From Naegleria gruberi (Eukaryota), in NCBI GenBank assembly GCA_000004985.1, contig GG738856.1: a DNA stretch of 64,000 bases; one strand, written 5' to 3'. Within the stretch, counting starts at the first letter, position 1; each line of letters begins with the position of its first letter. Shown piece after piece: positions 1-59,312 of the stretch. The notes beneath the pieces are model-generated. The model saw only the letters and a list, made by a program, of their open reading frames with translations, was not told the origin of the DNA and did not search any database. The translations under genes were made by a program, and so were the position numbers.

Positions 1-17
1 CTGAAAAGCAACAAGAA

Positions 18-739: not shown

Positions 740-789
740 NNNNNNNNNNNNNNNNNNNNNNNNNNNNNNNNNNNNNNNNNNNNNNNNNN
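740..789. other. Assembly gap (50 N).
   Basis: Run of n. Confidence 0.99.
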
Positions 790-1236: not shown

Positions 1237-1240
1237 ATAT

Positions 1241-2180: not shown

Positions 2181-2186
2181 AATAAA

Positions 2187-5657: not shown

Positions 5658-6347
5658 TATAATTTACAATTTCTTCCAATTATTACTATTTTACAAATGT
5701 ACATAAATCATAAACGCGACTAATATTCCATCAACAAGTATATCTATTAACAATTAATAATAATAATATTAAACCTATGGATGATCAACAAATAACAATA
5801 AAGATGATCTTTCTTATTAATGATGAAATATTCGCGAATATTAAACTACTAATACAAAAAAACACTGCAAGTAGACTTCTGATGTTGATGATTTATATAA
5901 ATTCTTAGCCAGAGAGTCTTTGTGTCGCTTCTTCTTTAGAGAAGACTAGAGTGAGAGGCTTTTGAATTTTTTCTTTCGGAAAGACAGCGCAGGATAAATC
6001 AAGATTGTTTTTTGACTTTTGGATACGGTTTGCAAATGAGCAAGATGAGAAGGTAATGGGAACAAGATAATAGATGAGGGTTGAAAGAGTTTTTTTGAGA
6101 TTTTGATCAACCATTGAGTTGATTGTTAAGATTGATGAAATTGTAATCAAGAAAATTGATCCGTGTGAATTGTTTATGATGAATATTAATTGTTCAATAT
6201 TATGGAATGAGTAGGAATGGATTGTAATTGGTGTCAAAATAACTGAATGAAAAAAAGTTGTCCATTCATTCACATGTTTTGTTCAAATATTCATCAAAAA
6301 AGAATTTGTTGCTTCCCGCTAAAATAAATTTTAAATTGAAAAAAAAA

Positions 6348-23900: not shown

Positions 23901-24171
23901 CAATGTATTTCCTATTGAATATTGGATCATGTTTCAATTGTTCGATGTGTTTATATATTTGTTCGTTCTTTTCGATTCTTGTGGAAGAAACTTGTTGAAA
24001 ATGGTTAAGTGCTAATAAATTACAATCGTGAGGATGATGATCGTAGGAAAACTTGTTGGTCAATTTATCAAAGGCTACAATCAGCAAATCAGTGAAGGAT
24101 AATTGATGCATTTTTTTCAGGTTGGAAATTGAACATTTTGTAAACTGGAATAACAGTTTAGTAACAAACAT
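20902..24171 (-). CDS. Large DUF4116-repeat protein with about 25 tandem 30-35 aa repeats.
   Basis: Repeats have the form DRE(I/L)VLxAVKxxGxxLxFASxELRxDREFV throughout, for example DREVVLAAVKNDGDSIQFV and DRELVLEAVRHDKTALQYA. This is the DUF4116 pattern known from kinetoplastids and other protists. It lies 20 nt downstream of the CobW-like gene. Confidence 0.65.
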   Translation of the reverse strand: MFVTKLLFQFTKCSISNLKKMHQLSFTDLLIVAFDKLTNKFSYDHHPHDCNLLALNHFQQVSSTRIEKNEQIYKHIEQLKHDPIFNRKYIEQNPFPDNDCKLAFFRALQKDGSLLEFASENLRNDEKVVLRAVKVDASAVEFVSEELRSNREFVERIIMIARDRTYNSPCSFFKFLDKFHDDEMIVRKMVKSYINSLEFASPRLKNDRGVVLDAVKKKGSSIKFVPQHLIDRELVLISVKTYYLAIKYAPLELLNDREIISSAVRTSGLSFDFASTELKCDREFVLEMVKLKGNCYNYLTMNLQQDREIAIEAVKSSPHSLSYAPINIREDDEIVSIALKKQLSIVTNLSNRFKDNPDFIYDCASSAYQVFLYIRYCNYPLAQDEDFRMRLIQKFTDYSHFFSMTMEGNIGNDLCLKFIEIDPDCLEKVGREDIYNNRKLLMDLLPHNEKVLDLIPESLSNDRELIIRAVRIYPDALKKASKELCSERELVTKALLYDSGNFEFLSEELRSDRGLIDDIINRDGSMIKYIPEKFRNNREIIMTAIRHSCSDIYPFIGYELKEDRELILESVKNSGIIRNVIQDFKNDREIVLTSIQQNGDEFQYASKYLRSDRELALIAIRMYCSLKHIFVEILDRELVYEACKRSSNNLEFASDFRDDEEIVMAAACSNSGYKFFSFASERLRSNRDFVLKVSKVSPCIIEFISKELCQDREIIMNAVSFNGYLLKHASEQLKSDREIVEKAISSEPTSLGFASEHLMHDLELFTKAVATKLTQHLSSQKEMMEKIDDSTFVKSIENESLLLLFPDSVKRNRKHAIKAVNNSMNNIGYVPYDLIDKEFIMEISPKEFDLLLLPLKWRSDRDIILKALESNGKSIVYISDEFKNEFKHNKEILLKAMKTDSIPFLYASEELQNDRDFVLESVTTNGMVLNHVPPQFKLDREVVLAAVKNDGDSIQFVATCCFLKDREIMWNTVQNVKLTPDGKRYNPLQYGSFEIRSDRELVLEAVRHDKTALQYAVLELRCNEEFITQCVEINISCLMHAHYQLRYNADFLKRLNKTSIIREQTNLHTHIDIEGLLGFYPKLKELMDC

Positions 24172-34841: not shown

Positions 34842-37800
34842 ATGTTGACTGAAAATAATAATTATCAATCATCGGCAGCAGTTAGTTCTTCCTCTTCATC
34901 ATCAAAGAGACATCAACATCATGATGATGACGACAATGATTATGATGATAAATTTAAAAAGTTTTCTGATCCGACAGAGGCTGCCAAACACACTTTCAGA
35001 TCACTTGATCGAGTTCCAGGATCATCATTCACAATCAGATCTAATAACAATAATACCACTTCTGATAATAATAACAATGAAAATAATCCAATTGATAGTG
35101 GCTTTGGACAGAATCAAAGGAAATTCCCAGAAAAACCATCAGCACACAGAACACCACTACAACAAGTGGGTGACTTTTTCAATAGTTTGATATTCAGTTT
35201 ACTCTATGTTACTGCTGACACAAAGAAGAGATTTTATAGTTTCCTTGTTGGTCTGATTACTATTGCTATTGTTGTGTTTGTTGTCAGTATATTGTACAAT
35301 TCAATTCTGAAAGCAAATTTAATCTTCTTGAAATTATCTGAGGACAATGTTGGAGATGCTGATATAATGTTTACACCAAAATTCACAAATTTAACAACTA
35401 TACCTTTTATTAACAATACCGAGATTAGTGAAAAATTAGCTAATAGTCCTTATATTACTGGCACAACCCCTCGTTGGATTATATTTGCCAATCTACAGAA
35501 TAGAGATCAACCTCAAAAGAATATTAGTGGACTTCTCTTGATTTTGGATACTGAGAGAGAAGAACAATTGGGAATTGGTAGAATATGGCCATACAGACCT
35601 CTTGGAGAAGGAGAAATTCATGTGAGAGATTCTATATTGCGAGCCATTGATGTGAAGCCAAATAGAGGGCAGAGAACTAATCTTGTAATTGATTTTGCCA
35701 GTTTGGCCAGTGCATTCTCTGGAAGTACTGAAGCCATACAGAATGGTGTGGATCCAACTCAACAAAATTTCGATCAAGCTCAATTATTGAGATCTCTTTT
35801 CATTTAAACTTAAAAGTGAAGGGTGAATCTTCTGTTGTTGATTCTATCACCTCCAATTATGCCAAATATCCAAGTGCTCTTGGTAACGTAATGATTATTG
35901 ACAGTCACTATGTAGGTCAAATAATTGAAGAGTCACTATTTGCCTCGCCCTCTACGCAGTTACTTTTGGAAATTACAGGAAATACTCAAAAAATCAAAAA
36001 CTTTTTCAAAACTTTCCCAATAGAACAGTACAGTTTAACTCTAGCAGGTCGACTGAAAGACAGATTCCCAACCTATCTCAAGAGTGATAATGAAAGAAAA
36101 CAAGCAGTTATTGGCATTACCAATGGTATGATGGATAGTATTGGAGTTGCTTATCCAGTCACTTACACTCTTCCACTTTTGAGTGCTTTAGATGGTACCA
36201 AATTTATTTCATTATTTATTGATCAAATCTTTATTGGAGTTGTTGTCATGTTAGCCATTTTGGGTATCATTTTGATTTTTGCCCTCCTTTTGGCCAATGT
36301 TGAGGAGAAAACCTATGAATATGGTATGTTGAGAGCCCTAGGTCTTCGTCAGTATTCTCTTATTCAGGTCATTTTGGCTCAATCCATGTACTTTGCCATA
36401 CCTGCCATCATTATTGCCATGGTACTTGCCTTCTTGGTAAATATTTTGGTTGAGTATGTATTACAAGTTGTTATCAGCACTCCAAGCTTGAATTTGTACT
36501 TCTTCTGGGCTGCAGTTGTAGTTCCAATTGCTCTTGGTTTTGGTATTCCTATTATTGCTAACGTTATTCCAATTAGACATGCTATGAGCAGAACTTTGAG
36601 AGATTCACTTGACATTGCCCATCAAACTTTCAATGAAACCACTGTCAAAATGATCAAACTTGAAGAATTAGGATTGGAACCATGGCAAACTGGTGTATCT
36701 ATTTTATTGGTTATTATTGGTTTTGTAGTTTACTATATGATTCCATATTCATTTATTTTCACTGATCTCCCACTCTTCTTCTTTATTTTGAATGCTATTC
36801 TATTGGGTATGCTTGTTGGATTGTGTATTATTGCTGTCGTATTAGAACCATTCTTTGAGAAGATTATATTGAATTTAATCTTGTGTGGACCTGAAAGAAA
36901 ATTGAAGACTTTAATTTCCAAGAATTTGGCTGGTCACCGTAAACGTAGTAGAAAGACCTTCCTCATGTTTACACTCTCAGTTGCCTTTATTGTTTTTGCT
37001 GGTGTTGTCTTTTCATTGCAATCAGCTAATATTCGTGCAAATGTTGAGGCTTTCCTTGGTGCAGATATTGTTGTCATTTCAACCAATTCACGTTATTCAC
37101 TTCCTAAAGACAAACTCAATGAAGCTATTGCACTCCAAAACAGTAGAAACAAAACGATAGAAGCACCAGTTAAGGGACATGCCTACCAATCATTCAGTAT
37201 TGCTAATATTCCGTTCTTTACTGGTTCTAGATTCTCCTCACTTGCCTATTTCCCTAACAGAAGAGTTGTTTATAATGCAGTGGACAGAAACTTTTTGAGT
37301 GTTGTCAAGAGCAAGTACTTCCTCTACACATACATTGATTCAAGTTTCACGTACAATATCACAGATGAGAAACCAGATGTTTTCCAAAGTTTGTACGATA
37401 ATGCAGGACAAGCTCTTGTTGATGGAGAAAAGGTTGGATTCGCACCAAGTATTGTATACAGTGGTGTAAAACTCAATTTCGAAGACAATTATACCTTAAC
37501 CTTTGATCCAGCCTCTCAATACTCACAATACATTGATATTGTAGCTTCTGAAGCTATGAGACCATCTGTTGGTATTGGAATTAAGACTCCAACCGATTTG
37601 AGATTCTCTGGCATCAATAGTAAGACAGGAACTCAAAATTATGTAGATTTTATTGGCAAGTCAAGATGCCTTGCCTATAAGGTCCCTGGTTTCTTCTATT
37701 CTTCATATGAACTTACTGCTTCTGGTTCTCCTGTTATTATTACTATGGATGCATACAAGAAAATTGCAAGATCAGTCGCTAAATCAGTTGGTCTCACTAC

Positions 37801-38377
37801 TTATAATGATGAAGTTTACTATCAAAAGCTCTTTATCAAGCTCAAAGATGAAATTACAACCTTTGAAGTACAAGACGTTTTCAATGCCTTACAAGCTTCT
37901 GTTAGTTCTGATTTCACAAGTATTCAAAATGTCAGAGATTTGGTTGGTAGTACAGAGACTGCTACACTTGTCCTTATGGCTTTCTTCAACATTGTTGCTG
38001 CTATTGCCATCATTTTGTGCTTCTTCATGTTGGCTGTTTCATTCACTGCTAACGTTAGAGATAACTCTTGGGAATTTGGTGTGTTGAGATCTATTGGTTT
38101 GTCTGTCAATGCACTCATTCGTGCCTATATTTATGAAGCTCTTTGCTTGGTCATTTCGGCCTTTATTTCTGGTACTGTGATTGGTTGTGTAATTGCCTTG
38201 ACATTAACAGCTCAGTTCAACTTGTTCTTGGAGATGCCGTTCCAATTCGATTTCCCATACTACCTCTTCTTCTCTATTCTTATCATGGCTCTCATTTGTG
38301 CCATTCTGGGTAGTTACTTGCCTGCTAGAAATTTGAGAAAGAAGGAAATTGCTCTCGTCATTCGTGGAGCTGAATAA
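34842..38377 (+). CDS. FtsX-like permease family (DUF214, MacB/LolE-type) protein with two FtsX 4-helix domains. The coding sequence is split into two ORFs, 34842..35807 and 35816..38377, by an apparent frameshift near 35730-35810.
   Basis: ORF 1 has an N-terminal TM (FLVGLITIAIVVFVVSILY) and the start of a large extracytoplasmic loop. ORF 2 continues the loop, then FtsX domain 1 (ILGIILIFALLLANVEEKTYEYGMLRALGLRQYSLIQVIL...), a second loop, and FtsX domain 2 (IVAAIAIILCFFMLAVSFTANVRDNSWEFGVLRSIGLSVNALIRAYIYE...). The reading frames overlap open for about 75 nt with no intron signals. Confidence 0.6.
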
Positions 38378-41892: not shown

Positions 41893-43626
41893 TTATTTCT
41901 TTGAAGTTTGATTCGTGGTGGTTGTTGGTGAAACAGAAATTCCCCTCTTTTGTTGAGATTTCTTTGTGCCAATGTCTTTAATCTTTTTAATTCTCATCTC
42001 TTTCAAGAATTCCATCGATTGCTTGAATCTCATGTGAGTATCTAACATGACAATGGAAATTTCCTTCTCCAAGTAATCGAACAAGTCTTCAGATAAGGAA
42101 TGAATTTGATGATTGGAATAAGCATCCAGTTCCATCTTGACCGATTCAATAGAGCTAGTGTTGACATTCACAGCTTTAGCACCAGTGACATCAAGGAAGG
42201 TTAAGTAAATCTCAGAGGCCAATTGGGACTTTTTAACTTCAATAGTATCCAATTCATTTTCCATTTCTGAAATTGTCTTTGGTGGTCCAGTTTTCTTCTT
42301 CTTTTCAGAGCTTGTTGTCTTGTCATTGCTTGACTTACTTCTGGAGCTTTGTTCGTTCATTTCAATGTTGGAATTGCTGTGATTCTCTGAACCATGAGCA
42401 CCAGACAATGAGGAAGGAACCGATGAGTTGGTAATTGAGGAGGCAGAACTTTCACCATCACTGAGCATTTGAACAAGTTCAATTTGATGCTCACACATTC
42501 TTCTATAAATTTGTACATGTTCCAAGAATTCAAAATTCTCACTATTGAACTCCTTCTTACAATGCTTTTGAAACAAAATTCTGAGCTTGTCATTATTCAT
42601 CACATCCATCAACTCCATAGCTTGAGCTCGTTTCAAATTACGATTATTGATAGCATCCTTCTTAATGGCAAATCCAAACACGAAGAGAATAATAGGCAAT
42701 GTCACCACAACTGCCACAGAAATAATCACCAACGAAGTAGTGGAAGCAACAAAGGCCAAGTAATTATTTCTCGTCTGTGTATCAGTCACATAGGTCATCA
42801 ACTTGTCTTGCTCAACTCTGAAAACATCTCTTGCATTGGTAAATTCGAAACTCTTGTACAATTCAATTGCTTTGGCGAAATTTCCATTTTCCATCATAAC
42901 TGCAGCATTGGAATTGTATTCTTTCATCTTGGCATACATGATTGCACCATTATTAATATATTCATTTCTGACATTTTGGTCTGATATCTGACTCAATAGA
43001 TTACTTGTCAAGGAATCCACTTGATTCGTATACTTGTAATAATAAGAAAGGTAGGAAGTATTCTGTGAATAGGCAGCTACCATCGAATAGGCATTAATCC
43101 AAGCAGCATACAAGTAGATATTTCCTCTCAATGCCAAAACATCCACATTGGTTGAAGTTTGAGCTTGCTGATTGAAAATGATTAGTCCCAAAAGTATCAG
43201 AAAGGTCAGAGTATTCACAATCATTGCAATAATCGCAAAAATTCTCACCCAACTCAAATCTAACAATCCAATATTACAACATGATAAATCCATGCGAAGT
43301 GCACCCTTGGAAACGGAGATTTTCTTGACTGTTTTGGAAGAACTTGAACTGGTTGAACTTTTGTTATCTTCATGTGCTTTATCGTGGTGTGTATGATGAT
43401 GTTGATGATGAGAATTTGAGAAGGTTGTTGATTTTTTCTTATTGGAATCGGTTGCTGGAGTTGGACTGGTTGAATTCGAATAGTTTTCATGAGGAATGGC
43501 AATGGTAAGAGTGTTAACTTCTGGGAGACTATTTGGTGTTATGGCTGCTGTGGTGGAGTATTGACTTGTTGGAAGGGTTGCAATGTCTAAAGAAGACGAA
43601 AGTTGTACAGTGTGTCCTTTCTCCAT
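41893..43626 (-). CDS. Membrane-anchored RGS-domain protein with two TM helices flanking a roughly 180-aa extracytoplasmic segment, followed by a cytoplasmic RGS domain with an insertion.
   Basis: TM1 is IFAIIAMIVNTLTFLILLGLIIF and TM2 is LVIISVAVVVTLPIILFVFGFAI. The RGS blocks are LFQKHCKKEFNSENFEFLEHVQIY ... ASEIYLTFLDVTGAKAVNVNTSSIESVKMELD ... LFDYLEKEISIVMLDTHMRFKQSMEF. Confidence 0.6.
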   Translation of the reverse strand: MEKGHTVQLSSSLDIATLPTSQYSTTAAITPNSLPEVNTLTIAIPHENYSNSTSPTPATDSNKKKSTTFSNSHHQHHHTHHDKAHEDNKSSTSSSSSKTVKKISVSKGALRMDLSCCNIGLLDLSWVRIFAIIAMIVNTLTFLILLGLIIFNQQAQTSTNVDVLALRGNIYLYAAWINAYSMVAAYSQNTSYLSYYYKYTNQVDSLTSNLLSQISDQNVRNEYINNGAIMYAKMKEYNSNAAVMMENGNFAKAIELYKSFEFTNARDVFRVEQDKLMTYVTDTQTRNNYLAFVASTTSLVIISVAVVVTLPIILFVFGFAIKKDAINNRNLKRAQAMELMDVMNNDKLRILFQKHCKKEFNSENFEFLEHVQIYRRMCEHQIELVQMLSDGESSASSITNSSVPSSLSGAHGSENHSNSNIEMNEQSSRSKSSNDKTTSSEKKKKTGPPKTISEMENELDTIEVKKSQLASEIYLTFLDVTGAKAVNVNTSSIESVKMELDAYSNHQIHSLSEDLFDYLEKEISIVMLDTHMRFKQSMEFLKEMRIKKIKDIGTKKSQQKRGISVSPTTTTNQTSKK

Positions 43627-49315: not shown

Positions 49316-50433
49316 TTAAATATAGAATTCATTAAGTGATGTTAATAATTTTGCTTCATCACTAATTCGATTGGCATAAACATAGAGTGATGTTAATTGT
49401 TTCATTCCACTTATGAACTTGGCTCCTTCATCACCAATTTCATTGTAACATATATCAAGTGATGTTAATTGTTTCATTTCACTTATCAATTTGGCTCCTT
49501 CATCAAGAATTATATTGTTAGAAATATTAAGTGATGTTAATTGTTTCATTCCACTGATGAATTCGGCTCCTTCATCATAAATTAGATTGTTAGAAATATC
49601 AAGTGATGTTAATTGTTTCATTTCACTTATGAATTTGGCTCCTTCAACACCCATTGGATTGCTAGAAATATCAAGTGATGTTAATTGTTTAATCTCGCTT
49701 AGATATTTGGCTCCTTTATCATCAATTCCACTCTTATAAATAGTAAGTGATGTTAATTGTTTCATTTCACTTATCAATTTGGCTCCTTCATCACTAATTT
49801 CATTCTTAGAAATATTAAGTGATGTTAATTGTTTCATTCCACTTATGAGTTTGGCTCCTTCAACACCAATTTCATTCTTAGAAATATCAAGTGATGTTAA
49901 TTGTTTCATTTCACTTATAGATTTGACTCCTTCATCATAAATTAGATTTCCAGAAATATCAAGTGATGTTAATTGTTTCATTTCACTTATTAATTTGGCT
50001 CCTTCAACACCAATTCCATTCTTAAAAATATTAAGTGATGTTAATTGTTTCATTTCACTTATTAATTTGGCTCCTTCTACACCAATTTGATTGTCAGAAA
50101 TATCAAGTGATGTCAATTGTTTAATCTCACTTATGAATTTGCCTCCTTCTACACCAATTTCATTGACACCAATACTAAGTGATGTTAATTGTTTCATTTC
50201 ACTTATGTATTTGGCTCCTTCCACACCAATTTCATTGTAATATATATAAAGTGATGTTAATTGTTTCATTTCACTTATGTATTTGGATCCTTCTACACCA
50301 ATTCGATTATTACATATATTAAGTGATGTTAATTGTTTCATTTCACTTATGGGTTTGGCTCCTTCATCACCAATTCGATTGTTAGAAATATCAAGTGATG
50401 TTAATTGTTTCATTTCACTTATGAATTTAGCTC
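49316..50433 (-). CDS. RNI-type leucine-rich-repeat protein, C-terminal part. Its 5' end is lost in the 655-N gap.
   Basis: There are 15 or more near-identical 24-aa repeats of the form MKQLTSLDISxNxIGVEGAKLISE. The stop is at 49316. Confidence 0.7.
49370..50433. repeat. Tandem array of 72-nt units of about 85-95% nucleotide identity (coding LRR units), abutting the assembly gap.
   Basis: Recurring blocks gtgatgttaattgtttcatttcacttat(g/c)aatttggctccttca...aatatcaa are visible every 72 nt. Confidence 0.8.
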
Positions 50434-51088
50434 NNNNNNNNNNNNNNNNNNNNNNNNNNNNNNNNNNNNNNNNNNNNNNNNNNNNNNNNNNNNNNNNNNN
50501 NNNNNNNNNNNNNNNNNNNNNNNNNNNNNNNNNNNNNNNNNNNNNNNNNNNNNNNNNNNNNNNNNNNNNNNNNNNNNNNNNNNNNNNNNNNNNNNNNNNN
50601 NNNNNNNNNNNNNNNNNNNNNNNNNNNNNNNNNNNNNNNNNNNNNNNNNNNNNNNNNNNNNNNNNNNNNNNNNNNNNNNNNNNNNNNNNNNNNNNNNNNN
50701 NNNNNNNNNNNNNNNNNNNNNNNNNNNNNNNNNNNNNNNNNNNNNNNNNNNNNNNNNNNNNNNNNNNNNNNNNNNNNNNNNNNNNNNNNNNNNNNNNNNN
50801 NNNNNNNNNNNNNNNNNNNNNNNNNNNNNNNNNNNNNNNNNNNNNNNNNNNNNNNNNNNNNNNNNNNNNNNNNNNNNNNNNNNNNNNNNNNNNNNNNNNN
50901 NNNNNNNNNNNNNNNNNNNNNNNNNNNNNNNNNNNNNNNNNNNNNNNNNNNNNNNNNNNNNNNNNNNNNNNNNNNNNNNNNNNNNNNNNNNNNNNNNNNN
51001 NNNNNNNNNNNNNNNNNNNNNNNNNNNNNNNNNNNNNNNNNNNNNNNNNNNNNNNNNNNNNNNNNNNNNNNNNNNNNNNNNNNNNNNN
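50434..51088. other. Assembly gap (655 N) inside or next to a tandem LRR gene array.
   Basis: Run of n flanked by near-identical 72-nt repeats. Confidence 0.99.
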
Positions 51089-51148: not shown

Positions 51149-52486
51149 TTAACAAAAGTAGAAATTTATCAAATCTGGAAGTTTTGAAAGCAATTCCAAT
51201 GAATCATCATTCACTGGATTGTTACAAATATCCAATTGAGTTAATTGATGCATTTGAGCAAGTGATTCAGCTCCATCATTTCCAACTCTATTGTCATTTA
51301 TCAAAAGTTCAGTCAATTTGGACATTCCAATAATTAAACCCGTTCCAATATCACCAATTTCATTCTCTCCAATGTCAAGATATAATAATTGGTCCAATTT
51401 ACTTATTGACTTCATTCCCTCATCGCCAATTTCATTGGTATTGATATCTAATTTTGTGAGTTGACTCAATTTGCTTAATGACTTGGCACCTTCTCCGCTA
51501 ATTCGATTATGAGAAATGTCAAGTTCAGTCAATTGTTCCATTATTCCAATATAGTGAGCTCCTTCGTTGCCAAGTACATTGTATCGAATATTAAGTTTAG
51601 TCAATTGATACATTTCACTAATAGCTTTGGATCCATAAGAGCCAATTTCATTATGACTAATTTCTAAGGTGGTCAATTGCTTCATCTCACTAATCAACCT
51701 TGCTCCTTCATCTCCAATTTTACAAGAGCTGATATTAAGGCAAATTAAATTATTGATGTGAAAAAGTGATTTAATGCCCTCAACTCCAATGTGATTTTCA
51801 GAAATTGAAAGATTGGTCAATTTGGTCATCCCACCAATATAACTGGCACCTTCATTGCCTATAAAATTGTTACTGATGTCGAGATCAGTTAATTGAGTCA
51901 TTTCACATATTGATTTGGTTCCTCCTGCATTGATATTGTTTCTGCTAATATTTAGTTTGGTCAATTGAGTCATTTCTCTAATAATTTTTGAACCTCTTTC
52001 AAGTAATTGATTATTGCTGATATCAAGGTCGGCCAAATGAGCGAGATTGCTTATCATATTGGCTCCCTCTGCATTTACCAACCATGAACTAACATCAAGT
52101 TTAGTTAATTTTCCACACATTCGAATAAAATTGCACAACTTTACAGTATCGCTAACTAATGTACCTATTCCAATTTTCATACTCGAAAAACATTCCAAGA
52201 ATTGACTCTTTCTCATCAAGTCAAACATTTCATCATTCCAATGATCCTTGTCAATGTAGTACTGAAATTCAATTGACAGTTTGGCATGCCGTTTAATACC
52301 TGCCATCCACTGCTTGGAAATTAGTACACAACTAGAGAGTATAAATTTCCAATCTCCGTTCAAATAGTTAATTATTTCATAGCAAATGTCATCAGAGAAT
52401 ATTTGATGGCTATCGGAAGGAATTTCAATCTCATAAAACATCTGATGTTTATCAAAAGCAAAATCTTCGGCTGGTAATTGATACAT
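51149..52486 (-). CDS. F-box-like N-terminus plus RNI-type LRR protein.
   Basis: IFSDDICYEIINYLNGDWKFILSSCVLISKQWMAGI is an F-box-like N-terminus. More than 10 repeats of the form QLTxLDISxNxIGxEGAxxIS follow. Confidence 0.75.
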   Translation of the reverse strand: MYQLPAEDFAFDKHQMFYEIEIPSDSHQIFSDDICYEIINYLNGDWKFILSSCVLISKQWMAGIKRHAKLSIEFQYYIDKDHWNDEMFDLMRKSQFLECFSSMKIGIGTLVSDTVKLCNFIRMCGKLTKLDVSSWLVNAEGANMISNLAHLADLDISNNQLLERGSKIIREMTQLTKLNISRNNINAGGTKSICEMTQLTDLDISNNFIGNEGASYIGGMTKLTNLSISENHIGVEGIKSLFHINNLICLNISSCKIGDEGARLISEMKQLTTLEISHNEIGSYGSKAISEMYQLTKLNIRYNVLGNEGAHYIGIMEQLTELDISHNRISGEGAKSLSKLSQLTKLDINTNEIGDEGMKSISKLDQLLYLDIGENEIGDIGTGLIIGMSKLTELLINDNRVGNDGAESLAQMHQLTQLDICNNPVNDDSLELLSKLPDLINFYFC

Positions 52487-52530: not shown

Positions 52531-53737
52531 CTAGTATTTATTTGAAAAGTAAGAAGAATTGGTGACATCACTTGGTTTTGGTCTATCTTCAGGATTCTTC
52601 TTTAACATTTGCATGACCATATCTACCAATTCAATGGAACAATTTGGAGAGCACTTGATAATATTTTCTCTGACAAGATTTTCTACATCCTTTTCGCTGG
52701 ACATGAGATTGAGATTGAGTTGACGTCTTTGGTGTTCCTTCAAATAGAGTTGAGTAATGCAAGTTTGTCTATCACCAGTCAGGCATTGATAGGCAGTTAC
52801 ACCAAGAGCGAAAATGTCTGTTTGGAAACAATTCTTACCTTGAACAATTGCTTCCCAACTCATGTAGATTGGTGTTCCAGCAAAGCCCATTTGAGTACTG
52901 AGTAGAGTATTTGCATCTCCTGTGACCAATGCTTGACTCAAATTAATATCACTACTGTCTGAAACTCTGGAAATGTTTGCATTATTACTAGTTGCTCCAC
53001 TAGTGGAATTTCTACCTTTCTTTGCCAAACCAAAATCACCCAATACAATATGAATCTGAGAACGGTGATAGTCAAAACTCTTGATAAATATGTTGGAAGG
53101 CTTAATATCTCTGTGAATCATATTGTACTCAGTGTTCATATAATCCAAAGCACTGCAAATTTGATAAATTAAGTGTGAGACGAGTGTTTCTGATAAAACG
53201 GTTTGGCCCAAGTAGCACTGATTGTTCATAAATTGTTCAAAATCTCCCAACTCGTAATAATCCATCTCCATACAAAGCATGTGTTGATTTGCATCAATAA
53301 AAACATCATTCACTCGTACAATATGTGGGTGTACCATTCTTAAAAGGTGTGTGGCTTCTCTGAGAGTTTGGTTAAGTTCATTCAAATCAGAGAAACGAAT
53401 AAGTTTGATGGCTTTCCATTGGAAGTTTTGCTTGGTATCTTGACCCTTGAAAACCAAACCAAATGAACCCTCACCAATTTTCATCAAATTAACAAATCTA
53501 TCAATGAGCATGGATTCACTTCCATTTAGTCTATTTTGAGAAGCATTACTGCTTAATTGAAGATTATTACCTGAAGAATCGTCCATCATACTCTTAGTTA
53601 GAGTCATGGCAGTTGAAACTTGAGAAATATTGAGGAAAGTTCTGATATTACCAGATCTATTAGAATATGGATCACTGCCACTCACAGGAGTTCCAACAAG
53701 ATTCAACTCAAAATTTTTATCCACAGAAAGAGTAAGA
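52531..53737 (-). CDS. Ser/Thr protein kinase catalytic domain. It is probably the cytoplasmic C-terminal part of the RCC1/EGF gene, with the upstream part lost in the 50-N gap.
   Basis: Motifs are IGEGSFGLVFKG (G-loop), AIKLI (VAIK), HRDIKPSNIF (catalytic loop), DFGLAK and GTPIYMSWE. A low-complexity juxtamembrane-like segment lies between the gap and the kinase. Confidence 0.8.
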
Positions 53738-53787
53738 NNNNNNNNNNNNNNNNNNNNNNNNNNNNNNNNNNNNNNNNNNNNNNNNNN
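53738..53787. other. Assembly gap (50 N) between the EGF-like modules and the kinase domain.
   Basis: Run of n. Confidence 0.99.
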
Positions 53788-56700
53788 GTAAAACAAGCAC
53801 AGGTATCAACACCTACGCATAATCCACTACCACTGCAAGCTGATGGATCATTGGCAGATAGTCCAAAACATGAAAAATATTGACAATTTTCACCTGTATA
53901 GCCAGCATTACACATACACAAGTCATTGGCAACACAAGTTCCATTTGCACTACATACTGATGAGTAGCTCCTATCAAGTCCACTACATTTAACTGATGGG
54001 CAAACATTTGGGATGTATGGCGAAGTGAGAACTACGCTGTGGAAAGCTCCTGCTGCAATAGATATGGCAATTCTTGGAGAGTTGTTACTTCCAAACTTGA
54101 ATTCTGCAGATGTAGCTGTCTTGTCGAGTGAAAATCCCAATTGACCATAGTCATTGTTGCCGTAAGCATAAACCATTCCTGTTGAAGTTAATATGACAGT
54201 ATGGAAAGCTCCAGATTGAATATCAGCAATACCTCCGTATGCGTATGGAAAGTTTACAGCAGTCGGAATGGTTACAATAGAACCACCACCATAGAGTGGA
54301 CCCAGTTGTTGGTAATCATTTCTTCCAAAAGCAAGTAACGTTCCATTCCTAGTTAAAATATGTGAATGATAAAAGCCTGCATAAACAGCAACTGGATTAT
54401 CAATTGGAATTTTGATAGGAGACGATGATTTGTCAATACCACTAACACCCAATTGACCATATGTGTTATCGCCAAAAGCAAAAGCTCCCTTTTCTGTTAG
54501 TACTAAAGAATGCTTTGCGCCACAAGAGGTTTGAAAAATCTTACCATTGGCTTGTGAGTTCCAGTTGACCTTTACAAGTTCTGGAGAATTTACCTCATTG
54601 CCAACTCCCAATTGACCATTACCGTTAAATCCAGCTGCATAGAGATTGTTGTTATCATCAGTTACAAGAATATGGTAAGCTCCACAAGTTACATTGGCAA
54701 TAACAACCCCTTTTGGTATTCCATATGGAGGATTTTGGGTAATATAACCACTTGTACCGAGCATGATGAGCTCACTGGTAGAATCTCTAATAGTGAACGC
54801 ATTTTGTAAAGTTGCACAAATCATTCTAGAAGGACTCCTCAATAACTCAATATTAGTTGGGCTGTAGAGCTTCTCTGGTGCGCCATCAATTCCGAACATG
54901 TTGTTGTAATTTAGACCAGAAACAAATGTTCCATTCAAAGATGCAATAAATGTTTGATATGCACCAGTACTAATACTATAATTCATACTACTGCCAAAGT
55001 CCACAACTGCAAATGCGTCTTGAGCCAAATCTGTCGTATATCTAAGGGATCTAGATGATGAGGCGCTTGTAACACCCAATTGACCCATATTGTTCATACC
55101 AAATGCATAAAGCTTGGACTGATTAGCAATAAGGAACGTTGTAAAGTCTGCTGCCTCAATATCTGATACATCACCTCTTACAAAGTTCAATTTTGAAGAA
55201 TATGAAACACCCCTCAAACCAAGTTGGCCGTAGTAATTTGAACCAACAGTATAGGTAGTATTGTCTTGCATGAGAACAACCAAGTGTCTTCTACCACAAA
55301 CCATCTTTAAAACTTGCTTTTGGATAAGAATAGGATCGATTAAAAGTCCAATACCATTAACTCCTCTAAAAGTATTATCAGAAATCCAAATAGTATTATT
55401 GTTCAAAAGAACCGCAAAGAACTTGTCACAAGCCAAAATCTTTGTAATACCGCTGGAAAAATAAAATCTGTCAAGATAATAAGCAGATACAGTGGCCTCA
55501 AACTTTGGGTCTGGCTTTTGGATGCTAAAGCTATCCTTGAAACCTCCAATGGCACTGGTTGATAAATTGACACCAGAAAATGAAATAACCTCTAAAAAGT
55601 TGGAATTTCTAATAATATTTGGATATTTAAAAGCACTCTCTAACTGGCCAAAGAAAATCAAAGAACCTTCATCAGTTAGCATTATAGTAAAGTATCTGGA
55701 TGCTTGAACAGAAATAATGTTTGGCTTCTTTTGTTTTCCCGCAGGACCTTCAATATATCCATTTCTCAAATCAAACTGCAATGGAACGGCTGTTTTGGAA
55801 ACAGGTATAGTTTGAGATGTTCCCAATAACCTTAAAGTGATATTTCCCATTTGTACATTAGCGTTTGATCCAAAGAATGTGAAAAAGTAATTATTGTGAA
55901 CAACAACTGTGTGGTCAGCTCCAGTATCAATAAGAGAAATATTCTTGAGTGGTAATTGATTCCAAGTACCAGCCTTTGTATCTAAACCAAGTTGATATTT
56001 GTTGTTTCTACCGCATGTATAAAGTTGTTTTTCGTTTTTAGTCACTACAACTGTGAACCCGTCACCAGTTAACACATTTCCAATGTTGTCAAAACTTGGT
56101 GCTTGTGCTGTTTGTGGAATTTTGTTTGGTTTCTTTCTAATATCCTTTTTGGTTAGTTCTGGAACTGTCGAAGTGGAACTCTTATCCAAGTCAATAATGT
56201 CGTTATCACTTGGGTCAACCATCACACTTTGATTCAATTCGGTTGATAAACCTAACGAATTATCGTCGTTTAACCCAAATCCAAACAAGTACTTTGTATC
56301 CTTTTCTTCATCACCAATAACAACTGTGTGAGTATAAGAAGTGGCTACCTTCCTCACTCTAATAGTATAATCATCATCACTGATCAGTGCTCTTGGTGGT
56401 TCTTGTGGCTTTCCATTGTTTCCATTGCCATTTCCGTTGCCATTTCCATTGTTTCCATTACCATTTCCATCAGCTATTGTTGTTCTTCCTTTGGATCTTG
56501 TTGTCAGTGAAGGAAAGATAACTAGCCAAGGTTCCAGCACAATATAATTGGCAAAAGTACTAGTGGTTGGTAGTGTAACAACAGTGCCATTACCCAATGC
56601 ACCTGATGTTGGTAAACCAGCTGATAGTATTTGAAAAGTTTGGATAGCTGGATATGGACTACAAGTTACAGGATATGAAGAAAATAATGGTCGTGGCATT

Positions 56701-57302
56701 CCTCTCCTAGCTATTGTAAATAAATCCTGTTCTGCATTCACTATAAAGTAGGAATGAAGATGTTGTTGATTGGTATTGTTATTATTGTTCATGTAGCTAT
56801 CTGTTAATATATTGATATTGAAAATAGTCGATACGAGTAGATAGTAAATACATATTAAATAGGTAAAAATTAGAATAGTTCGTCCTATGAGTGAATATTT
56901 TCCAATAATTGTTGTTGTTGTTGTTGGTGATGATAAATTATATTTTGGTGGTGATTGTTCATCTACTTCTTTAGAATGATGGTGATGAAGGTAGTTTACA
57001 AAATTTTCTTGTTTCCTCAGGGAAACATTCTCGCAACAATTGTAGCAAATAGTATTGCTATTATTATAAAAGCTCGTATTCTTATTCATATTATTCATAT
57101 TATTATTATTGATGGTAGCAGTATTATTAAAACTAGTTATTGATGAAAAATCCGAGCGGATACATTCATGATCATCAAGTTTGGGACGTCCACTCAATGG
57201 ACAGATTTTTATACTCTTGTNCAAACTCAACGACTCTACCTCTATCTTCTCCTTCTCCTCCTGTACTCTTGTTTTGTTCTTGATTAAAAAAGTTGGCGCC
57301 AT
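53788..57302 (-). CDS. Large RCC1-repeat (beta-propeller) protein with an N-terminal signal-anchor/TM and C-terminal EGF-like Cys-rich modules. Its C-terminus runs into the gap. It is likely the ectodomain of the same gene as the kinase at 52531..53737.
   Basis: The ATG is at 57302 (MAPTFLIKNK). The TM is IGRTILIFTYLICIYYLLVSTIF. There are more than 10 RCC1-like blades with GQLG signatures (YGQLGLRGV, MGQLGVTSA, GNGQLGVGNE, TYGQLGVSGI, DYGQLGFSLD...). The EGF-like region is CSANGTCVANDLCMCNAGYTGENC ... CSGSGLCVGVDTCAC. One N lies at 57221. Confidence 0.6.
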
Positions 57303-59312
57303 TTCTTGTTCCGGTTTCTTCAATTCTTCTTTAGCTTGCTGCTACCGCTAGTTGTATTATTATTATTTGGTGGTAACAACAACAATGATGATGTTGAATA
57401 GTGTTGTTGTTGTTGTTGTTGTTGGTTATTATGTAAATTCATGATTGCGGAAGAATTAATTACATGATGATGATGGTTAATATTGTGGAAGGAGTTTAAA
57501 TTATTTAATGTTGAAGAATTTGCAGAGAAACAATTAATGTGATTGTTCTCCATTCTCATGGTTAGATGTTGTTGTTGTTTATCGTTGGGTGATGAATATG
57601 CTTGATGTTCATCCGTGTTGTTGTTCTCATGAGAATGACATTGCCCAACGCCAGCCGTCATTTTATTTTTAATTAATTTGAAAGGAAGAACATTCCATTT
57701 TGTGCCAAGATCTTCTGAGATTCAACGTCTCGTTCAAGGTTGGTTGGACAGTTGGTAAGGCATAATAGTGTTTACAAATTTTGAATGTGTTTCTATTGGT
57801 TGAATGCTATTAACTATTATATTATATTATCTAGATTGTTAAATATTATTATTTTTGGAATGAGGTTTGCAAATTGTGACCTATTCGTGCGATTAATTCG
57901 ATGAATGAAACAGTTGGGTCAACCTAATGAGAGTTTACAATATTCATCCTTAACTATTTTTCAAATTTGGAAATATGACATTTGTAACCAATAATATTAT
58001 TTTCATTATTATTAAGAAAATGCAAAAAAATTACTCACAATCTACAGTTTCAAACTAAACTGTAGATTTACATATTCATTTCCAGTACAATCACCCAAGA
58101 TAATAACCCTCAAACAAGATAACAATTGGAAATTTAGTCTAATCACTACTTGAAATGAATCACCGAGAATTTGATATTTCAAAATTGGCAGCCCCAAATT
58201 ATTGTCCTTACTTTTCTAAATTTTGAAGGAGGATTCCCAATTCCATTGAAATAGAGGCGAATAGCAATTTGAGGAAATTATATCAATCCAAATCTAATGT
58301 TTTCAATTGTTCCAACCATTAATTGATGACAAAACATTACAAAATTGATAAACACATCACGACTGGTTGTTTCCTATTGAATGCATGAATCACTCTTACA
58401 ATGGGAGGTTTTCTTTCCTTTAGGAAGATTGGATAACAAATACTATCATGGTATTCAAGACGAATTGAGACGTTTTTAATTTTGGAAGTTGATTGTTTAA
58501 GAAATCTTTTACTAGAATGGATGTCAGATAGCACTGTTTCTTCTAAATTGTTTTTGAGACATGATGTAATCGCAAGAATGTAAAAAACTTACTCCGTTCC
58601 ATTCGAATTGAGTAGGGTAACCCCACTTGCCTCTGTTACATTGCATCTTTAAATAATTTATTTAACAGTATTATTTAAACGTTGGATACTACAACATGAA
58701 TAATACAATGCTAACATTAGCATCAAGAATTGCTCAATATAGATATTAGCCAAAAAAACATGGTTTATTATCTATTGCACCTGAAGATGATCGTAACTGA
58801 ACTTTTTCATGTCAGAGCGAAGGGGTTTAAAATGTGAGTTGCATTCACATAGAATTGACTTTATTGAGGTGCATCTGGCGGTAAACAGTTCGATATCGAC
58901 TGGACCAATTCATCTTTTTTGGATAGTTTAATTGTGTACAACCTTATTATTCAGCAAAAACTAGCCCTACGTAGGAAATTTGCTTAGTCCTCAACATGCG
59001 AACATGCTTCTGTACTTGACAGATGTTATTTTTAATTCACTAAATCTGCAATCCTTCATCAAATTAGACAGTCATGGATTGTGTTGGGATCACAGATTAG
59101 ACCAGGCACTTGTGCGCATGTGTCAGGTTTTTGGCTTTTGTGGCTCAAACAAGTTTTAAATATTGTGTGGGAAAAACTCTCAGAGGAGAAAAACAATTTC
59201 AAAACAAATTGCATCACAGCAATCTTCTCTTGTAAACAACAGCGTTTCGAATAGTGGAAAAGAGATAACAACAACGACAATAGTAATACAGTTCTTGTTA
59301 CAATTCAGTATT

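What the first reader, a model, noticed from the sequence alone, without database searches (positions are those of the whole stretch)
52531..57302. Candidate receptor-type kinase: signal-anchor, more than 10 RCC1 beta-propeller blades, EGF-like modules, a gap, then a Ser/Thr kinase
The RCC1/EGF ORF (57302..53788) and the kinase ORF (53737..52531) are collinear and on the same strand. They are separated only by a 50-N assembly gap. The gap is where a membrane-spanning segment would be expected between a Cys-rich EGF-like ectodomain and a juxtamembrane low-complexity segment. An RCC1 propeller used as an extracellular ligand-binding domain of a kinase is not a standard architecture. If confirmed it would be a distinctive receptor family.
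Basis: inference. Interest (0 to 1): 0.6.

Follow-up and report, generated by a model that had tools for sequence, protein, structure and literature searches.

The report
Naegleria RCC1-propeller receptor kinase gene

Summary
Confirmed. The window is Naegleria gruberi NEG-M. The RCC1/EGF ORF (57302..53788) and the kinase ORF (53737..52531) lie on the minus strand on either side of a 50-N gap (53738..53787). A 98.5-99% identical contig from an independent metagenome assembly (L001) closes the gap with 237 nt. These are in frame, have no stop, and encode the sixth Cys of the second EGF module, a ~30-residue hydrophobic segment and KKEKKKK. The N. lovaniensis orthologue is a single uninterrupted ORF of 1724 aa, and an environmental homologue (≥1399 aa) also reads through without a stop. 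Both have the same order: N-terminal tail, TM1 signal anchor, divergent RCC1-like domain, canonical seven-bladed RCC1-like domain, two EGF modules, TM2, juxtamembrane region, kinase with all catalytic residues. The public N. gruberi model (XP_002679892.1) already fuses the two ORFs, but it splices an artificial intron over the gap and so loses TM2. The architecture is not unique: plant CRINKLY4-type receptor kinases also have RCC1-like ectodomains. This protein fails the CR4 defining features, and its kinase is nearest to NEK. Only three representatives were found in 1.84 billion proteins. I read it as a new variant of a known kind, of moderate interest. Ligand and function are unknown.

The parts
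57320..57661 (-). Probable true 5' end of the gene. This ATG-initiated ORF encodes an H/N/Q-rich low-complexity N-terminal cytoplasmic tail. In the window it is out of frame with the rest because of a 1-nt deletion at 57321.
   Evidence: In L001 the frame is continuous from this ATG through the whole gene (1772 codons). The window lacks one T at 57321 relative to L001. Upstream of 57661 the sequence is AT-rich and has in-frame stops. tblastn of P0050 residues 1-109 matches 57661..57338 at 94% identity. P(no stop in 254 codons) is about 4e-9. N. lovaniensis also has ~175 residues before TM1.
56898..57319 (-). Rest of the N-terminal cytoplasmic tail.
   Evidence: Translation. The ATG at 57302 is GTG in L001. 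Differences from L001 here include whole-codon indels and a 7:6 nonsynonymous:synonymous ratio, so the region is fast-evolving and low-complexity. A single n lies at 57221.
56805..56897 (-). TM1, a signal anchor (YSLIGRTILIFTYLICIYYLLVSTIFNINIL). K/R lie on its N-side and no positive charge on its C-side.
   Evidence: Kyte-Doolittle peak of 2.31. Coordinates. Equivalent hydrophobic segments exist in N. lovaniensis (residues 173-201) and upstream of the called start in L003.
55302..56804 (-). Membrane-proximal linker, the conserved YPVTC...SAGLP.SGALGNG motif, a G/N-rich insert, and a divergent first RCC1-like domain (about 7 repeats, some degenerate).
   Evidence: Scanned alone, this half matches WD40_RLD at E 7e-23. 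The equivalent halves match at 2e-47 (N. lovaniensis) and 7e-34 (environmental homologue).
54021..55301 (-). Second, canonical RCC1-like domain, a seven-bladed propeller.
   Evidence: WD40_RLD at 208 bits for this half alone. Closest PDB sequences are HERC1, RPGR, UVR8 and RCC1 (E 8e-38 to 1e-23). The AF2 model (pTM 0.69; residues 200-400 at pLDDT 76-91) aligns over ~420 columns to complete UVR8, RPGR, HERC2 and RCC1 propellers (E 2e-25, TM 0.65-0.68 normalised by target).
53883..54002 (-). EGF-like module 1 (C-x10-C-x5-C-x5-C-x-C-x8-C), preceded by one extra conserved Cys.
   Evidence: EGF_Teneurin and EGF_2 matches. All Cys are invariant in the three orthologues. Coordinates.
53788..53870 (-). 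EGF-like module 2, first five Cys only. The sixth Cys lies in the gap.
   Evidence: Window translation ends ...CVGVDTCACF. L001 continues TNATGTRC. Once complete, EGF_Teneurin rises to 29.7 bits, above the cut-off of 24.3.
53738..53787 (.). 50-N assembly gap. It stands in for about 237 nt that encode the end of EGF2, a short acidic linker, TM2 (LALSIALPLSLTFAMLLVLGFIFLAISLALFF), the stop-transfer KKEKKKK, and the start of the juxtamembrane region.
   Evidence: L001 aligns flush to both gap edges (1-3945 to 57731-53788; 4183-6775 to 53737-51145) and has 237 extra nt. The TM2 hydropathy peak is 2.81, the highest in the protein. N. lovaniensis and the environmental homologue have a TM and a KK(D/E)(K/R)(K/R)K motif at the same alignment columns.
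53497..53737 (-). Cytoplasmic juxtamembrane region, S/N-rich, with the invariant motif NIRTF(L/M)N(I/L)SQVSTA.TLT (53596..53649).
   Evidence: Translation. Invariant columns in the three-orthologue alignment. Coordinates.
52534..53496 (-). Ser/Thr protein kinase domain. Motifs present: GEGSFG, AIK Lys, alpha-C Glu, HRDIKPSN, DFG, GTPIYMSWE and the subdomain XI Arg. A ~45-residue S/T/N-rich insert sits in the activation segment. Stop codon TAG at 52531..52533.
   Evidence: Pkinase 137.4 bits. Motif coordinates. 63-67% identical in the orthologues. Only 1 nonsynonymous against 7 synonymous differences from L001. Nearest PDB kinases with a family profile: NEK1 107.6, NEK2 101, CDPK 98, ULK 95 bits.
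53707..53816 (-). Artificial 'intron' of the public gene model XP_002679892.1 (GT at 53816, AG at 53707). It splices over the gap and deletes about 98 residues, including TM2.
   Evidence: P0001 reads ...SGSGLC|LNLVGTPV..., whereas the ORFs read ...SGSGLCVGVDTCACF[gap]LTLSVDKNFELNLVGTPV.... L001 shows the whole stretch is coding.

Best explanation
One intron-less gene of Naegleria gruberi spans about 57661..52531 on the minus strand and encodes ~1770 aa. The product is a two-pass receptor-type Ser/Thr kinase.

Anatomy, in order:
- a ~250-residue low-complexity cytoplasmic N-tail;
- a signal-anchor TM1;
- a ~1000-residue exoplasmic loop made of two tandem RCC1-like propellers (the first divergent, the second canonical and seven-bladed);
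- a stalk of two tenascin/teneurin-type EGF modules;
- TM2 with a poly-Lys stop-transfer (hidden in the 50-N gap);
- a conserved juxtamembrane segment;
- a kinase that appears catalytically competent, with a long S/T-rich activation-loop insert.

Shown here: the gene is continuous, the domain order is as listed, and the TM lies in the gap.

Inferred from the positive-inside rule, and from the fact that EGF modules are disulfide-bonded exoplasmic modules: the propellers face the outside (or the lumen of a phagosome or vesicle), and both termini, including the kinase, face the cytosol.

Inferred by analogy with other receptor kinases: a ligand (unknown; possibly a protein or glycan from prey bacteria, other cells or the matrix) binds a propeller face. 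Binding changes oligomeric state or TM2 register, allows trans-autophosphorylation of the activation-loop insert and juxtamembrane segment, and starts cytosolic Ser/Thr signalling.
For: - Identity. The window is 100% identical to N. gruberi XP_002679892.1.
- Gap closure. L001 is 98.5-99% identical on both sides and supplies 237 nt, in frame and without a stop, that encode the EGF2 end, TM2 and KKEKKKK.
- Hydrophobic segments. P0050 has only two such segments, TM1 and TM2.
- N. lovaniensis orthologue. One uninterrupted ORF from a gap-free locus, with the same TM1, ectodomain, TM2 and kinase.
- Environmental homologue. Same arrangement, including an upstream TM1 in the same frame.
- Three-way alignment. 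All 13 EGF-region Cys are invariant, as are the KK motif after TM2, the juxtamembrane motif and the catalytic residues. The ectodomain is 34-38% identical and the kinase 63-67%, the usual receptor pattern.
- Propellers. Both halves of the ectodomain match the RLD model on their own. The C-terminal half folds as a complete seven-bladed RCC1 propeller.
- Purifying selection. Synonymous:nonsynonymous differences from L001 are 5:3 in the ectodomain and 7:1 in the juxtamembrane region plus kinase.
- Related receptor. A N. fowleri protein has a related kinase (43% identity to the query; 40% over the kinase domain) behind NHL repeats, many EGF modules and a TM. Naegleria therefore uses this kinase type on other large ectodomains.
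Against: - The gap in strain NEG-M itself was not closed. Its content is inferred from a 98.5-99% identical contig of unknown strain.
- No transcript or protein evidence was available.
- In the window the N-terminal part is out of frame (1-nt deletion at 57321). The start codon and the length of the N-tail are therefore uncertain for this strain.
- Topology rests on hydropathy and charge rules only. No dedicated TM or signal-peptide predictor was available.
- N-glycosylation sequons are no denser in the putative ectodomain (16 in 1019 residues) than in the cytosolic part (10 in 432). They give no support.
- The full-ectodomain AF2 model had low confidence (pLDDT 43.8). 'Two closed propellers' is shown only for the second.
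- Ligand, localisation (plasma membrane or endomembrane) and kinase activity are untested.
Confidence: 0.82

Rival explanations
1. There are two independent genes. One encodes a membrane-anchored or secreted RCC1/EGF protein that ends in the gap. The other encodes a cytosolic kinase that starts in or after the gap.
For: In the window the ORFs are in different frames, and the junction itself is unsequenced.
Against: Three independent gap-free sequences read straight through, with no stop and no ATG-led restart: L001, N. lovaniensis L002 and environmental L003. The frame difference disappears when the arbitrary 50 N are replaced by the real 237 nt. The kinase ORF has no ATG before its conserved juxtamembrane region.
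Confidence: 0.03
2. The gene is the same, but the sensor works inside the cell. The protein sits in an endomembrane (phagosome, contractile vacuole or ER/Golgi). The propellers face the lumen and sense ingested prey or lumenal content rather than the external medium.
For: Topology arguments only say 'exoplasmic/lumenal'. They cannot tell the plasma membrane from endomembranes. Naegleria is a phagotroph. The long cytosolic N-tail could carry sorting signals.
Against: No specific evidence either way. No sorting motif was identified. EGF stalks and large propeller ectodomains are typical of cell-surface receptors (established knowledge).
Confidence: 0.12
3. The NEG-M copy is a pseudogene or damaged allele. 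The frameshift at 57321 removes the normal start, so this strain makes no full-length receptor.
For: There is a one-base deletion at 57321 relative to L001. A further 1-nt and a 5-nt indel nearby compensate for each other.
Against: Low-quality assembly is a likely alternative cause: the deletion lies in a short T run 100 nt from an 'n' base call and in a scaffold with three N gaps. The remaining 1570 or so codons are intact and under purifying selection. In-frame ATGs downstream (57302, and about 57097 as used by the public model) could still start a protein that keeps TM1.
Confidence: 0.05

Closest known systems
Plant CRINKLY4 (CR4/ACR4) receptor-like kinases, and plant RLKs annotated with RCC1 Pfam domains
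   Same: The logic is the same: an RCC1-like seven-bladed propeller ectodomain, then a small Cys-rich module next to the membrane, a TM segment, and a cytoplasmic Ser/Thr kinase (PMC4617170; PMC13174206).
   Different: - CR4 has one propeller of ~39-residue 'crinkly' repeats stabilised by C-x10-CWG disulfides. This protein has two propellers of canonical 50-60-residue RCC1 repeats, no CWG motif, and only four Cys invariant across all aligned sequences in the propeller region.
- The Cys-rich module is EGF here, not TNFR-like.
- This protein has an internal signal anchor and a long cytosolic N-tail instead of a cleaved signal peptide.
- The kinase is nearest to NEK, CDPK and ULK. No RLK/Pelle or IRAK kinase is among the 60 best PDB matches.
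- The organism belongs to Discoba, not to plants.
I therefore read the resemblance as convergence, not membership.
Nek8 / Nek9 (NEK kinases with an RCC1-like domain)
   Same: The same two domain families occur in one polypeptide. The kinase here scores best against NEK1 and NEK2 among solved structures.
   Different: Nek8 and Nek9 are soluble cytosolic or ciliary proteins, with the kinase N-terminal and the RCC1 domain C-terminal (established knowledge). Here the order is reversed, and the two are separated by EGF modules and a membrane span, so they lie on opposite sides of a membrane. The NEK lead over CDPK and ULK is only ~10 bits, so NEK membership is not established.
Bacterial secreted or surface RCC1-repeat proteins (T9SS, LPXTG, FN3/Ig-containing)
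   Same: These are RCC1 propellers used outside the cell. Apart from the Naegleria orthologues, they are the best-scoring relatives of the ectodomain.
   Different: None of the 150 best representatives other than the Naegleria-type proteins has a kinase domain. In L075 a bacterial kinase and a double-RLD protein are neighbouring but separate genes.
Naegleria fowleri NHL-EGF-TM-kinase (XP_044565022.1 / CAG4715597.1)
   Same: It has a related kinase domain (43% identity to the query; 40% over the kinase domain), teneurin-type EGF modules, a single TM followed by basic residues, and a large beta-propeller-repeat (NHL) ectodomain.
   Different: It has NHL repeats and more than 10 EGF modules instead of RCC1 propellers. 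Its N-terminus looks like a signal peptide. It has no activation-loop insert.
Mycobacterium tuberculosis PknD and Entamoeba histolytica transmembrane kinases (TMKs)
   Same: These are microbial Ser/Thr kinases with an extracellular sensor. PknD has an NHL beta-propeller and the Entamoeba TMKs have Cys-rich repeats. Both are joined to the kinase by one TM (established knowledge; EhTMKs in PMC2880585, listed).
   Different: The sensor folds differ and the kinase lineages are unrelated. In PknD the kinase is N-terminal to the TM.

Membership tests
RCC1-like domain (RLD) superfamily | Sequence match to the RLD / RCC1 repeat models above the curated threshold | tested here: met
   PF25390 at 300.6 bits against a cut-off of 150. 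PF00415 at 165.5 against 21.7. PF13540 at 169.5 against 22. The N-terminal half alone reaches 82 bits, below the PF25390 cut-off, but RCC1 and RCC1_2 are above theirs.
RCC1-like domain (RLD) superfamily | Seven-bladed beta-propeller fold | tested here: met
   Met for the C-terminal RLD. The AF2 model (pTM 0.69) matches complete UVR8, RPGR, HERC2 and RCC1 propellers at E 2e-25 and TM 0.65-0.68 normalised by target. Inconclusive for the N-terminal RLD, because the full-ectodomain model had pLDDT 43.8.
Eukaryotic protein kinase superfamily (active Ser/Thr kinase) | Pkinase profile match, plus Gly-rich loop, VAIK Lys, alpha-C Glu, HRDxKxxN, DFG and subdomain VIII Glu | tested here: met
   PF00069 at 137.4 bits against a cut-off of 31.7. 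GEGSFG, AIK, LREA, HRDIKPSN, DFG and GTPIYMSWE are all present and invariant in the orthologues. Catalytic activity itself cannot be tested here.
Receptor (transmembrane) protein kinase | A membrane-spanning segment between an exoplasmic domain and the kinase, in one polypeptide | tested here: met
   Met in the gap-closed near-identical contig and in two orthologues. Inferred for the NEG-M window itself, because the segment lies inside the N run.
Receptor (transmembrane) protein kinase | Ectodomain actually exposed outside and binding a ligand | not testable with these tools
   The only support is the positive-inside rule and the presence of disulfide-type EGF modules.
Plant CRINKLY4 (CR4) RLK family | ~39-residue crinkly repeats with paired Cys (C-x10-CWG) | tested here: not met
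   There is no CWG and no C-x8-12-CWG anywhere. The propeller region has 7 Cys in ~925 residues, four of them invariant across all four aligned sequences.
Plant CRINKLY4 (CR4) RLK family | TNFR-like Cys-rich repeats between the propeller and the TM | tested here: not met
   Pfam finds only EGF_Teneurin and EGF_2 there and no TNFR model even at E up to 1. The pattern is C-x10-C-x5-C-x5-C-x-C-x8-C, twice.
Plant CRINKLY4 (CR4) RLK family | Kinase of the RLK/Pelle (IRAK-like) lineage | tested here: not met
   A family profile searched against all PDB sequences gives NEK1, NEK2, CDPK, ULK, STK33, MST3, PKR, NEK7, CDK2 and others. No plant RLK, IRAK or TGF-beta-receptor kinase appears among the 60 best matches, all at 78 bits or more. 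A full kinome phylogeny was not run.
NEK kinase family | Kinase domain groups specifically with NEKs | tested here: inconclusive
   NEK1 and NEK2 are the top matches (107.6 and 101 bits), but CDPK (98) and ULK (95) are close behind. No phylogeny or kinase-group HMM library was available.

The most novel reading that the evidence does not exclude
Heterolobosean amoebae independently invented a class of receptor Ser/Thr kinase. Tandem RCC1 propellers, whose closest relatives are bacterial cell-surface RCC1 proteins and which may have been acquired from them, serve as the extracellular sensor. They are held in a two-TM 'sensor loop' topology reminiscent of bacterial histidine kinases. They are coupled to a NEK-like kinase with a regulatory activation-loop insert. 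On this reading it is a convergent counterpart of plant CRINKLY4, and the first receptor kinase of this type described outside plants.
Probability: 0.35. Interest if true: 0.55.

Novelty: new variant of a known kind. Interest (0 to 1): 0.4.

Why it matters
- It corrects a public gene model. XP_002679892.1 / D2V8B1 lacks about 98 residues, including the transmembrane segment, and probably about 190 N-terminal residues. As deposited, it does not look like a receptor.
- It documents a receptor-type Ser/Thr kinase in Discoba. Its ectodomain logic (RCC1 propeller, then a Cys-rich stalk) parallels plant CRINKLY4, but it is built from different parts. It is a clear case for studying convergent receptor design and how free-living amoebae sense their surroundings.
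- The gene is conserved in N. lovaniensis, the closest relative of the pathogen N. fowleri. N. fowleri has a related kinase on an NHL/EGF ectodomain. Cell-surface kinases of this type could become markers or targets.
- The biology (ligand, localisation, pathway) is entirely open, and only three representatives of this architecture were found. The finding is a solid annotation result of moderate interest, not a breakthrough.

Tried and rejected
- Word-index protein searches were of little use. One used the EGF-TM-kinase segment and one the family profile. One search returned only distant kinases and missed even the query's own protein. One search found the query's own protein, but otherwise only bacterial RCC1 proteins, and missed the known orthologues. 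I draw no negative conclusion from either. The exhaustive HMMER search was the informative one.
- AF2 on the whole 1001-residue ectodomain with a 4-sequence alignment gave pLDDT 43.8. I did not use it for fold search. The 512-residue C-terminal part gave a usable model.
- The metagenome scan returned 80 loci. Going by the tblastn-matched query ranges, nearly all matched only the RCC1 part of the query. Only L075 spanned RCC1 to kinase, and it proved to be two separate genes on a bacterial contig. No further Naegleria-type receptor was recognised.
- Literature searches found no description of this protein or of Naegleria receptor kinases. Terms tried were Naegleria with RCC1, kinase, transmembrane, kinome and receptor kinase, and the project accession PRJEB11402. 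The RCC1 hits in a coccolith paper were culture-collection numbers.
- The divergent neighbour of the N. lovaniensis orthologue is a 1337-aa kinase. It is not detectably related to this kinase (tblastn at E 1e-5 finds only the orthologue), so there is no local receptor-kinase cluster.
- N-glycosylation sequon density was considered as evidence for topology. I rejected it, because it is not enriched in this N-rich proteome.
- The bacterial promoter/terminator scan is irrelevant for a eukaryote.
- A specific link between this RCC1 domain and those of Nek8/Nek9 was considered. Nothing supports it: the nearest solved RLDs are HERC1, RPGR and UVR8.

Full report
**What is in the window**

The region reads as described. 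On the minus strand an ORF runs from 57302 into a run of exactly 50 N (53738..53787). A second ORF resumes at 53737 and ends with TAG at 52531-52533.

The window is AT-rich (33.6% GC), so a stop is expected about every 14 codons. Open frames of 1171 and 402 codons are therefore far beyond chance.

Pfam assigns the first ORF to the RCC1-like domain family: WD40_RLD at 300.6 bits against a cut-off of 150, RCC1 at 3.9e-49 and RCC1_2 at 6.1e-51. It also gives borderline EGF matches. The second ORF matches Pkinase at 137.4 bits.

The organism is Naegleria gruberi NEG-M. The best database hit is 100% identical: XP_002679892.1 / EFC47148.1 / UniProt D2V8B1, 'serine/threonine protein kinase', 1485 aa.

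**The fusion is already in the public model, but in a damaged form**

P0001 contains both ORFs joined as ...SGSGLC|LNLVGTPV.... Comparison with the ORF translations shows what the modeller did. It placed a GT...AG intron (53816..53707) over the gap. This discards VGVDTCACF, everything in the gap, and LTLSVDKNFE. The public protein therefore has no hydrophobic segment between the EGF modules and the kinase.

**Closing the gap in silico**

The 90%-identity cluster of P0001 holds a second member, P0050. It is 1772 aa and is encoded on a 6790-bp contig of an ENA metagenome assembly (ERZ929261 k127_297130 = L001).

L001 aligns to the window at 98.5% (L001 1-3945 to 57731-53788) and at 99.0% (4183-6775 to 53737-51145). 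The alignments run flush to both edges of the N run, and L001 has 237 extra nucleotides between them.

The 237 nt are in frame and have no stop. They read TNATGTRCQTSTHTESD-LALSIALPLSLTFAMLLVLGFIFLAISLALFF-KKEKKKKLEERETSSGTESVNNNHKTDLESN. That is, in order:
- the sixth Cys of the second EGF module;
- a short acidic linker;
- the most hydrophobic segment of the whole protein (Kyte-Doolittle 2.81);
- a poly-Lys stop-transfer.

In the window the two ORFs are in different frames only because 50 is an arbitrary placeholder. With 237 nt the distance between codon starts becomes 3753, which is 3 x 1251.

**Independent confirmation from orthologues**

I ran an exhaustive HMMER search of 1.84 billion representative proteins with the last 1195 residues of P0001. 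It found two proteins that match across both the RCC1 and the kinase parts:
- P0174, Naegleria lovaniensis XP_044552277.1, 1724 aa, 890 bits;
- P0175, from an ENA metagenome, 1399 aa as called, 853 bits.

The N. lovaniensis gene is a single 5175-nt ORF with no N and no internal stop (L002 5001-10175). It has two hydrophobic segments at the corresponding places (residues 173-201 and 1228-1265).

In L003 the reading frame is open upstream of the called start. It contains a TM1-like segment (LTWWFIHVLTLSLILQSIITTF) and the YQVPC motif that aligns with YPVTC.

In the three-way alignment the following are invariant:
- all 13 Cys of the EGF region;
- the KK..K motif after TM2;
- a juxtamembrane motif, NIRTF.N.SQVSTA.TLT;
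- all catalytic kinase residues.

The ectodomain is 34-38% identical and the kinase 63-67%.

Among the 150 best representatives, a kinase HMM detects a kinase only in P0174, P0175 and a N. fowleri protein. At this level of similarity the architecture therefore looks like a single-copy orthologue restricted to Naegleria-like amoebae, not an expanded family.

**Anatomy**

- N-terminal tail. In L001 the frame is open from an ATG that corresponds to window 57661. In the window this part is a separate 113-codon ORF (57320..57661), because one T is missing at 57321. This lies 100 nt from an 'n' base call, so a sequencing error is plausible. A real strain difference cannot be excluded.
- Start codon.
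- TM1. It lies at 56805..56897, with K/R on its N-side only.
- Ectodomain repeats. A blade HMM finds 12 RCC1 repeat matches, 10 full-length and 2 partial. There is room for about two degenerate repeats between P0050 residues 664 and 800.
- Two RCC1-like domains. Each half matches the RLD model alone. The N-terminal half matches at 7e-23 (2e-47 in N. lovaniensis and 7e-34 in the environmental homologue). The C-terminal half matches at 2.9e-61.
- Fold of the second domain. An AF2 model of the C-terminal half (pTM 0.69; pLDDT 76-91 over residues 200-400) superposes over ~420 columns on complete seven-bladed propellers of UVR8, RPGR, HERC2 and RCC1 (E 2e-25). This agrees with the sequence matches to HERC1, RPGR and UVR8.
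- Fold of the first domain. The model of the whole ectodomain was too poor to show how the first domain closes. 'Two propellers' is therefore shown for the second and inferred for the first.
- EGF modules. Two follow, each C-x10-C-x5-C-x5-C-x-C-x8-C, with one extra conserved Cys in front.
- Kinase. After TM2 and the juxtamembrane segment, the kinase has every catalytic motif. It also has an S/T/N-rich insert of about 45 residues between DFG and GTPIYMSWE.

**Topology and mechanism**

Only the order of the parts is shown. The orientation is inferred in two ways:
- both TM segments have their positive charges on the sides that put the N-tail and the kinase in the cytosol;
- EGF modules are disulfide-bonded exoplasmic modules, and no hydrophobic segment separates them from the propellers.

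Sequon density gives no extra support.

The most likely working model is a sensor loop held between two membrane spans. A ligand binds a propeller face and changes oligomerisation or TM2 register. This drives trans-autophosphorylation of the activation-loop insert and the juxtamembrane segment. I hold the architecture with high confidence. I hold the signalling mechanism by analogy only.

An endomembrane (phagosomal) location is not excluded.

**Comparison with known systems**

Plant CRINKLY4/ACR4 receptor kinases have a seven-repeat RCC1-like propeller, a Cys-rich (TNFR-like) module, a TM and a kinase (PMC4617170). Plant RLKs annotated with PF00415/PF13540 are a recognised group (PMC13174206).

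The Naegleria protein fails the CR4 defining features:
- it has no C-x10-CWG repeats;
- it has EGF rather than TNFR modules;
- its kinase is nearest to NEK1 and NEK2 (107.6 and 101 bits), then CDPK and ULK, with no RLK/Pelle kinase among the 60 best PDB matches.

The NEK resemblance recalls Nek8 and Nek9, which combine a NEK kinase with an RCC1 domain. Those proteins are soluble and have the opposite domain order. The NEK lead is also only about 10 bits, so I leave NEK membership open.

Apart from the Naegleria orthologues, the best relatives of the ectodomain are bacterial or metagenomic surface RCC1 proteins. This hints at a bacterial origin but does not demonstrate one.

A N. fowleri protein (XP_044565022.1) carries a related kinase (43% identity to the query; 40% over the kinase domain). 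That kinase sits behind NHL repeats, many teneurin-type EGF modules and a TM. Naegleria therefore couples this kinase type to different large ectodomains.

**Verdict**

The gap hides the transmembrane segment of a single receptor-type kinase gene.

The result is mainly a corrected and better-understood annotation of a gene that public databases already list as one, mis-spliced, protein. It also recognises a convergent, non-plant counterpart of RCC1-ectodomain receptor kinases.

I found no paper describing it. I rate it a new variant of a known kind, with interest about 0.4.

Noticed in passing
window 57321 and 57221; 57183-57188: Relative to the 98.5% identical contig L001, the window lacks one T at 57321. 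This splits off the first 113 codons (ORF 57320..57661) from the rest of the gene. An ambiguous base 'n' lies 100 nt away, and a 1-nt plus 5-nt indel pair nearby compensates in frame. This looks like low-quality assembly, but it could be a real allele.
   Followed up: partly
window 53707-53816: The public N. gruberi gene model (XP_002679892.1 / D2V8B1) bridges the assembly gap with an artificial GT...AG intron. It therefore lacks about 98 residues, including the sixth Cys of EGF2 and the transmembrane segment. It also starts about 190 residues downstream of the probable start.
   Followed up: yes
window 52879-53028 (activation segment of the kinase): A ~45-residue S/T/N-rich insert lies between DFG and the P+1 loop. 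Its sequence and length vary among the three orthologues, but it is flanked by invariant DFGLAKKG and DA.TLLSTQ.GFAGTP. It is absent from the related N. fowleri NHL-EGF kinase. It may be a regulatory phosphorylation region.
   Followed up: partly
window 51149-52486 (-) and 49316-50413 (-): Two LRR_6 (RNI-type) leucine-rich-repeat proteins lie immediately downstream on the same strand. The second runs into the 655-N gap at 50434..51088. The ORFs that the ORF listing reports across that gap are artefacts of translating N. The first LRR gene shows 10 nonsynonymous against 6 synonymous differences from L001.
   Followed up: partly
window 20902-24171 (-): A 1089-aa ORF consists of 18 DUF4116 repeats (E 1.3e-187).
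   Followed up: no
window 2187-4670 (-) and 35816-38377 (+): There is a PIP5K catalytic domain fused to a C-terminal TPR array (827 aa), and an 853-aa protein with bacterial-type FtsX-like permease domains. Both are unusual architectures for a eukaryote. An RGS-domain protein lies at 41893-43626 (-).
   Followed up: no
L075 3656-5113 and 6092-8479 (Ga0134128_10009546): On what appears to be a bacterial metagenome contig, a 485-aa Ser/Thr kinase gene lies about 1 kb upstream, on the same strand, of a 795-aa protein with two RCC1-like domains (WD40_RLD 1.6e-193). A kinase and RCC1 propellers are thus neighbours as separate genes.
   Followed up: partly
P0314 / P0320 (N. fowleri XP_044565022.1, CAG4715597.1): This is a receptor-type kinase of 2142-2266 aa. 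It has a signal-peptide-like N-terminus, NHL repeats, more than 10 teneurin-type EGF modules, a long unassigned region, one TM, and a kinase 40% identical to the one in the window over the kinase domain (43% to the query). It suggests a Naegleria receptor-kinase group with interchangeable ectodomains.
   Followed up: partly
L002 281-4574 (-) (N. lovaniensis PYSW02000010.1): The divergently transcribed neighbour of the N. lovaniensis orthologue is a 1337-aa kinase with a faint Chlam_PMP hit. Its kinase is not detectably similar to the RCC1-receptor kinase. The neighbourhood differs from the one in the N. gruberi window, so local synteny is not conserved.
   Followed up: partly
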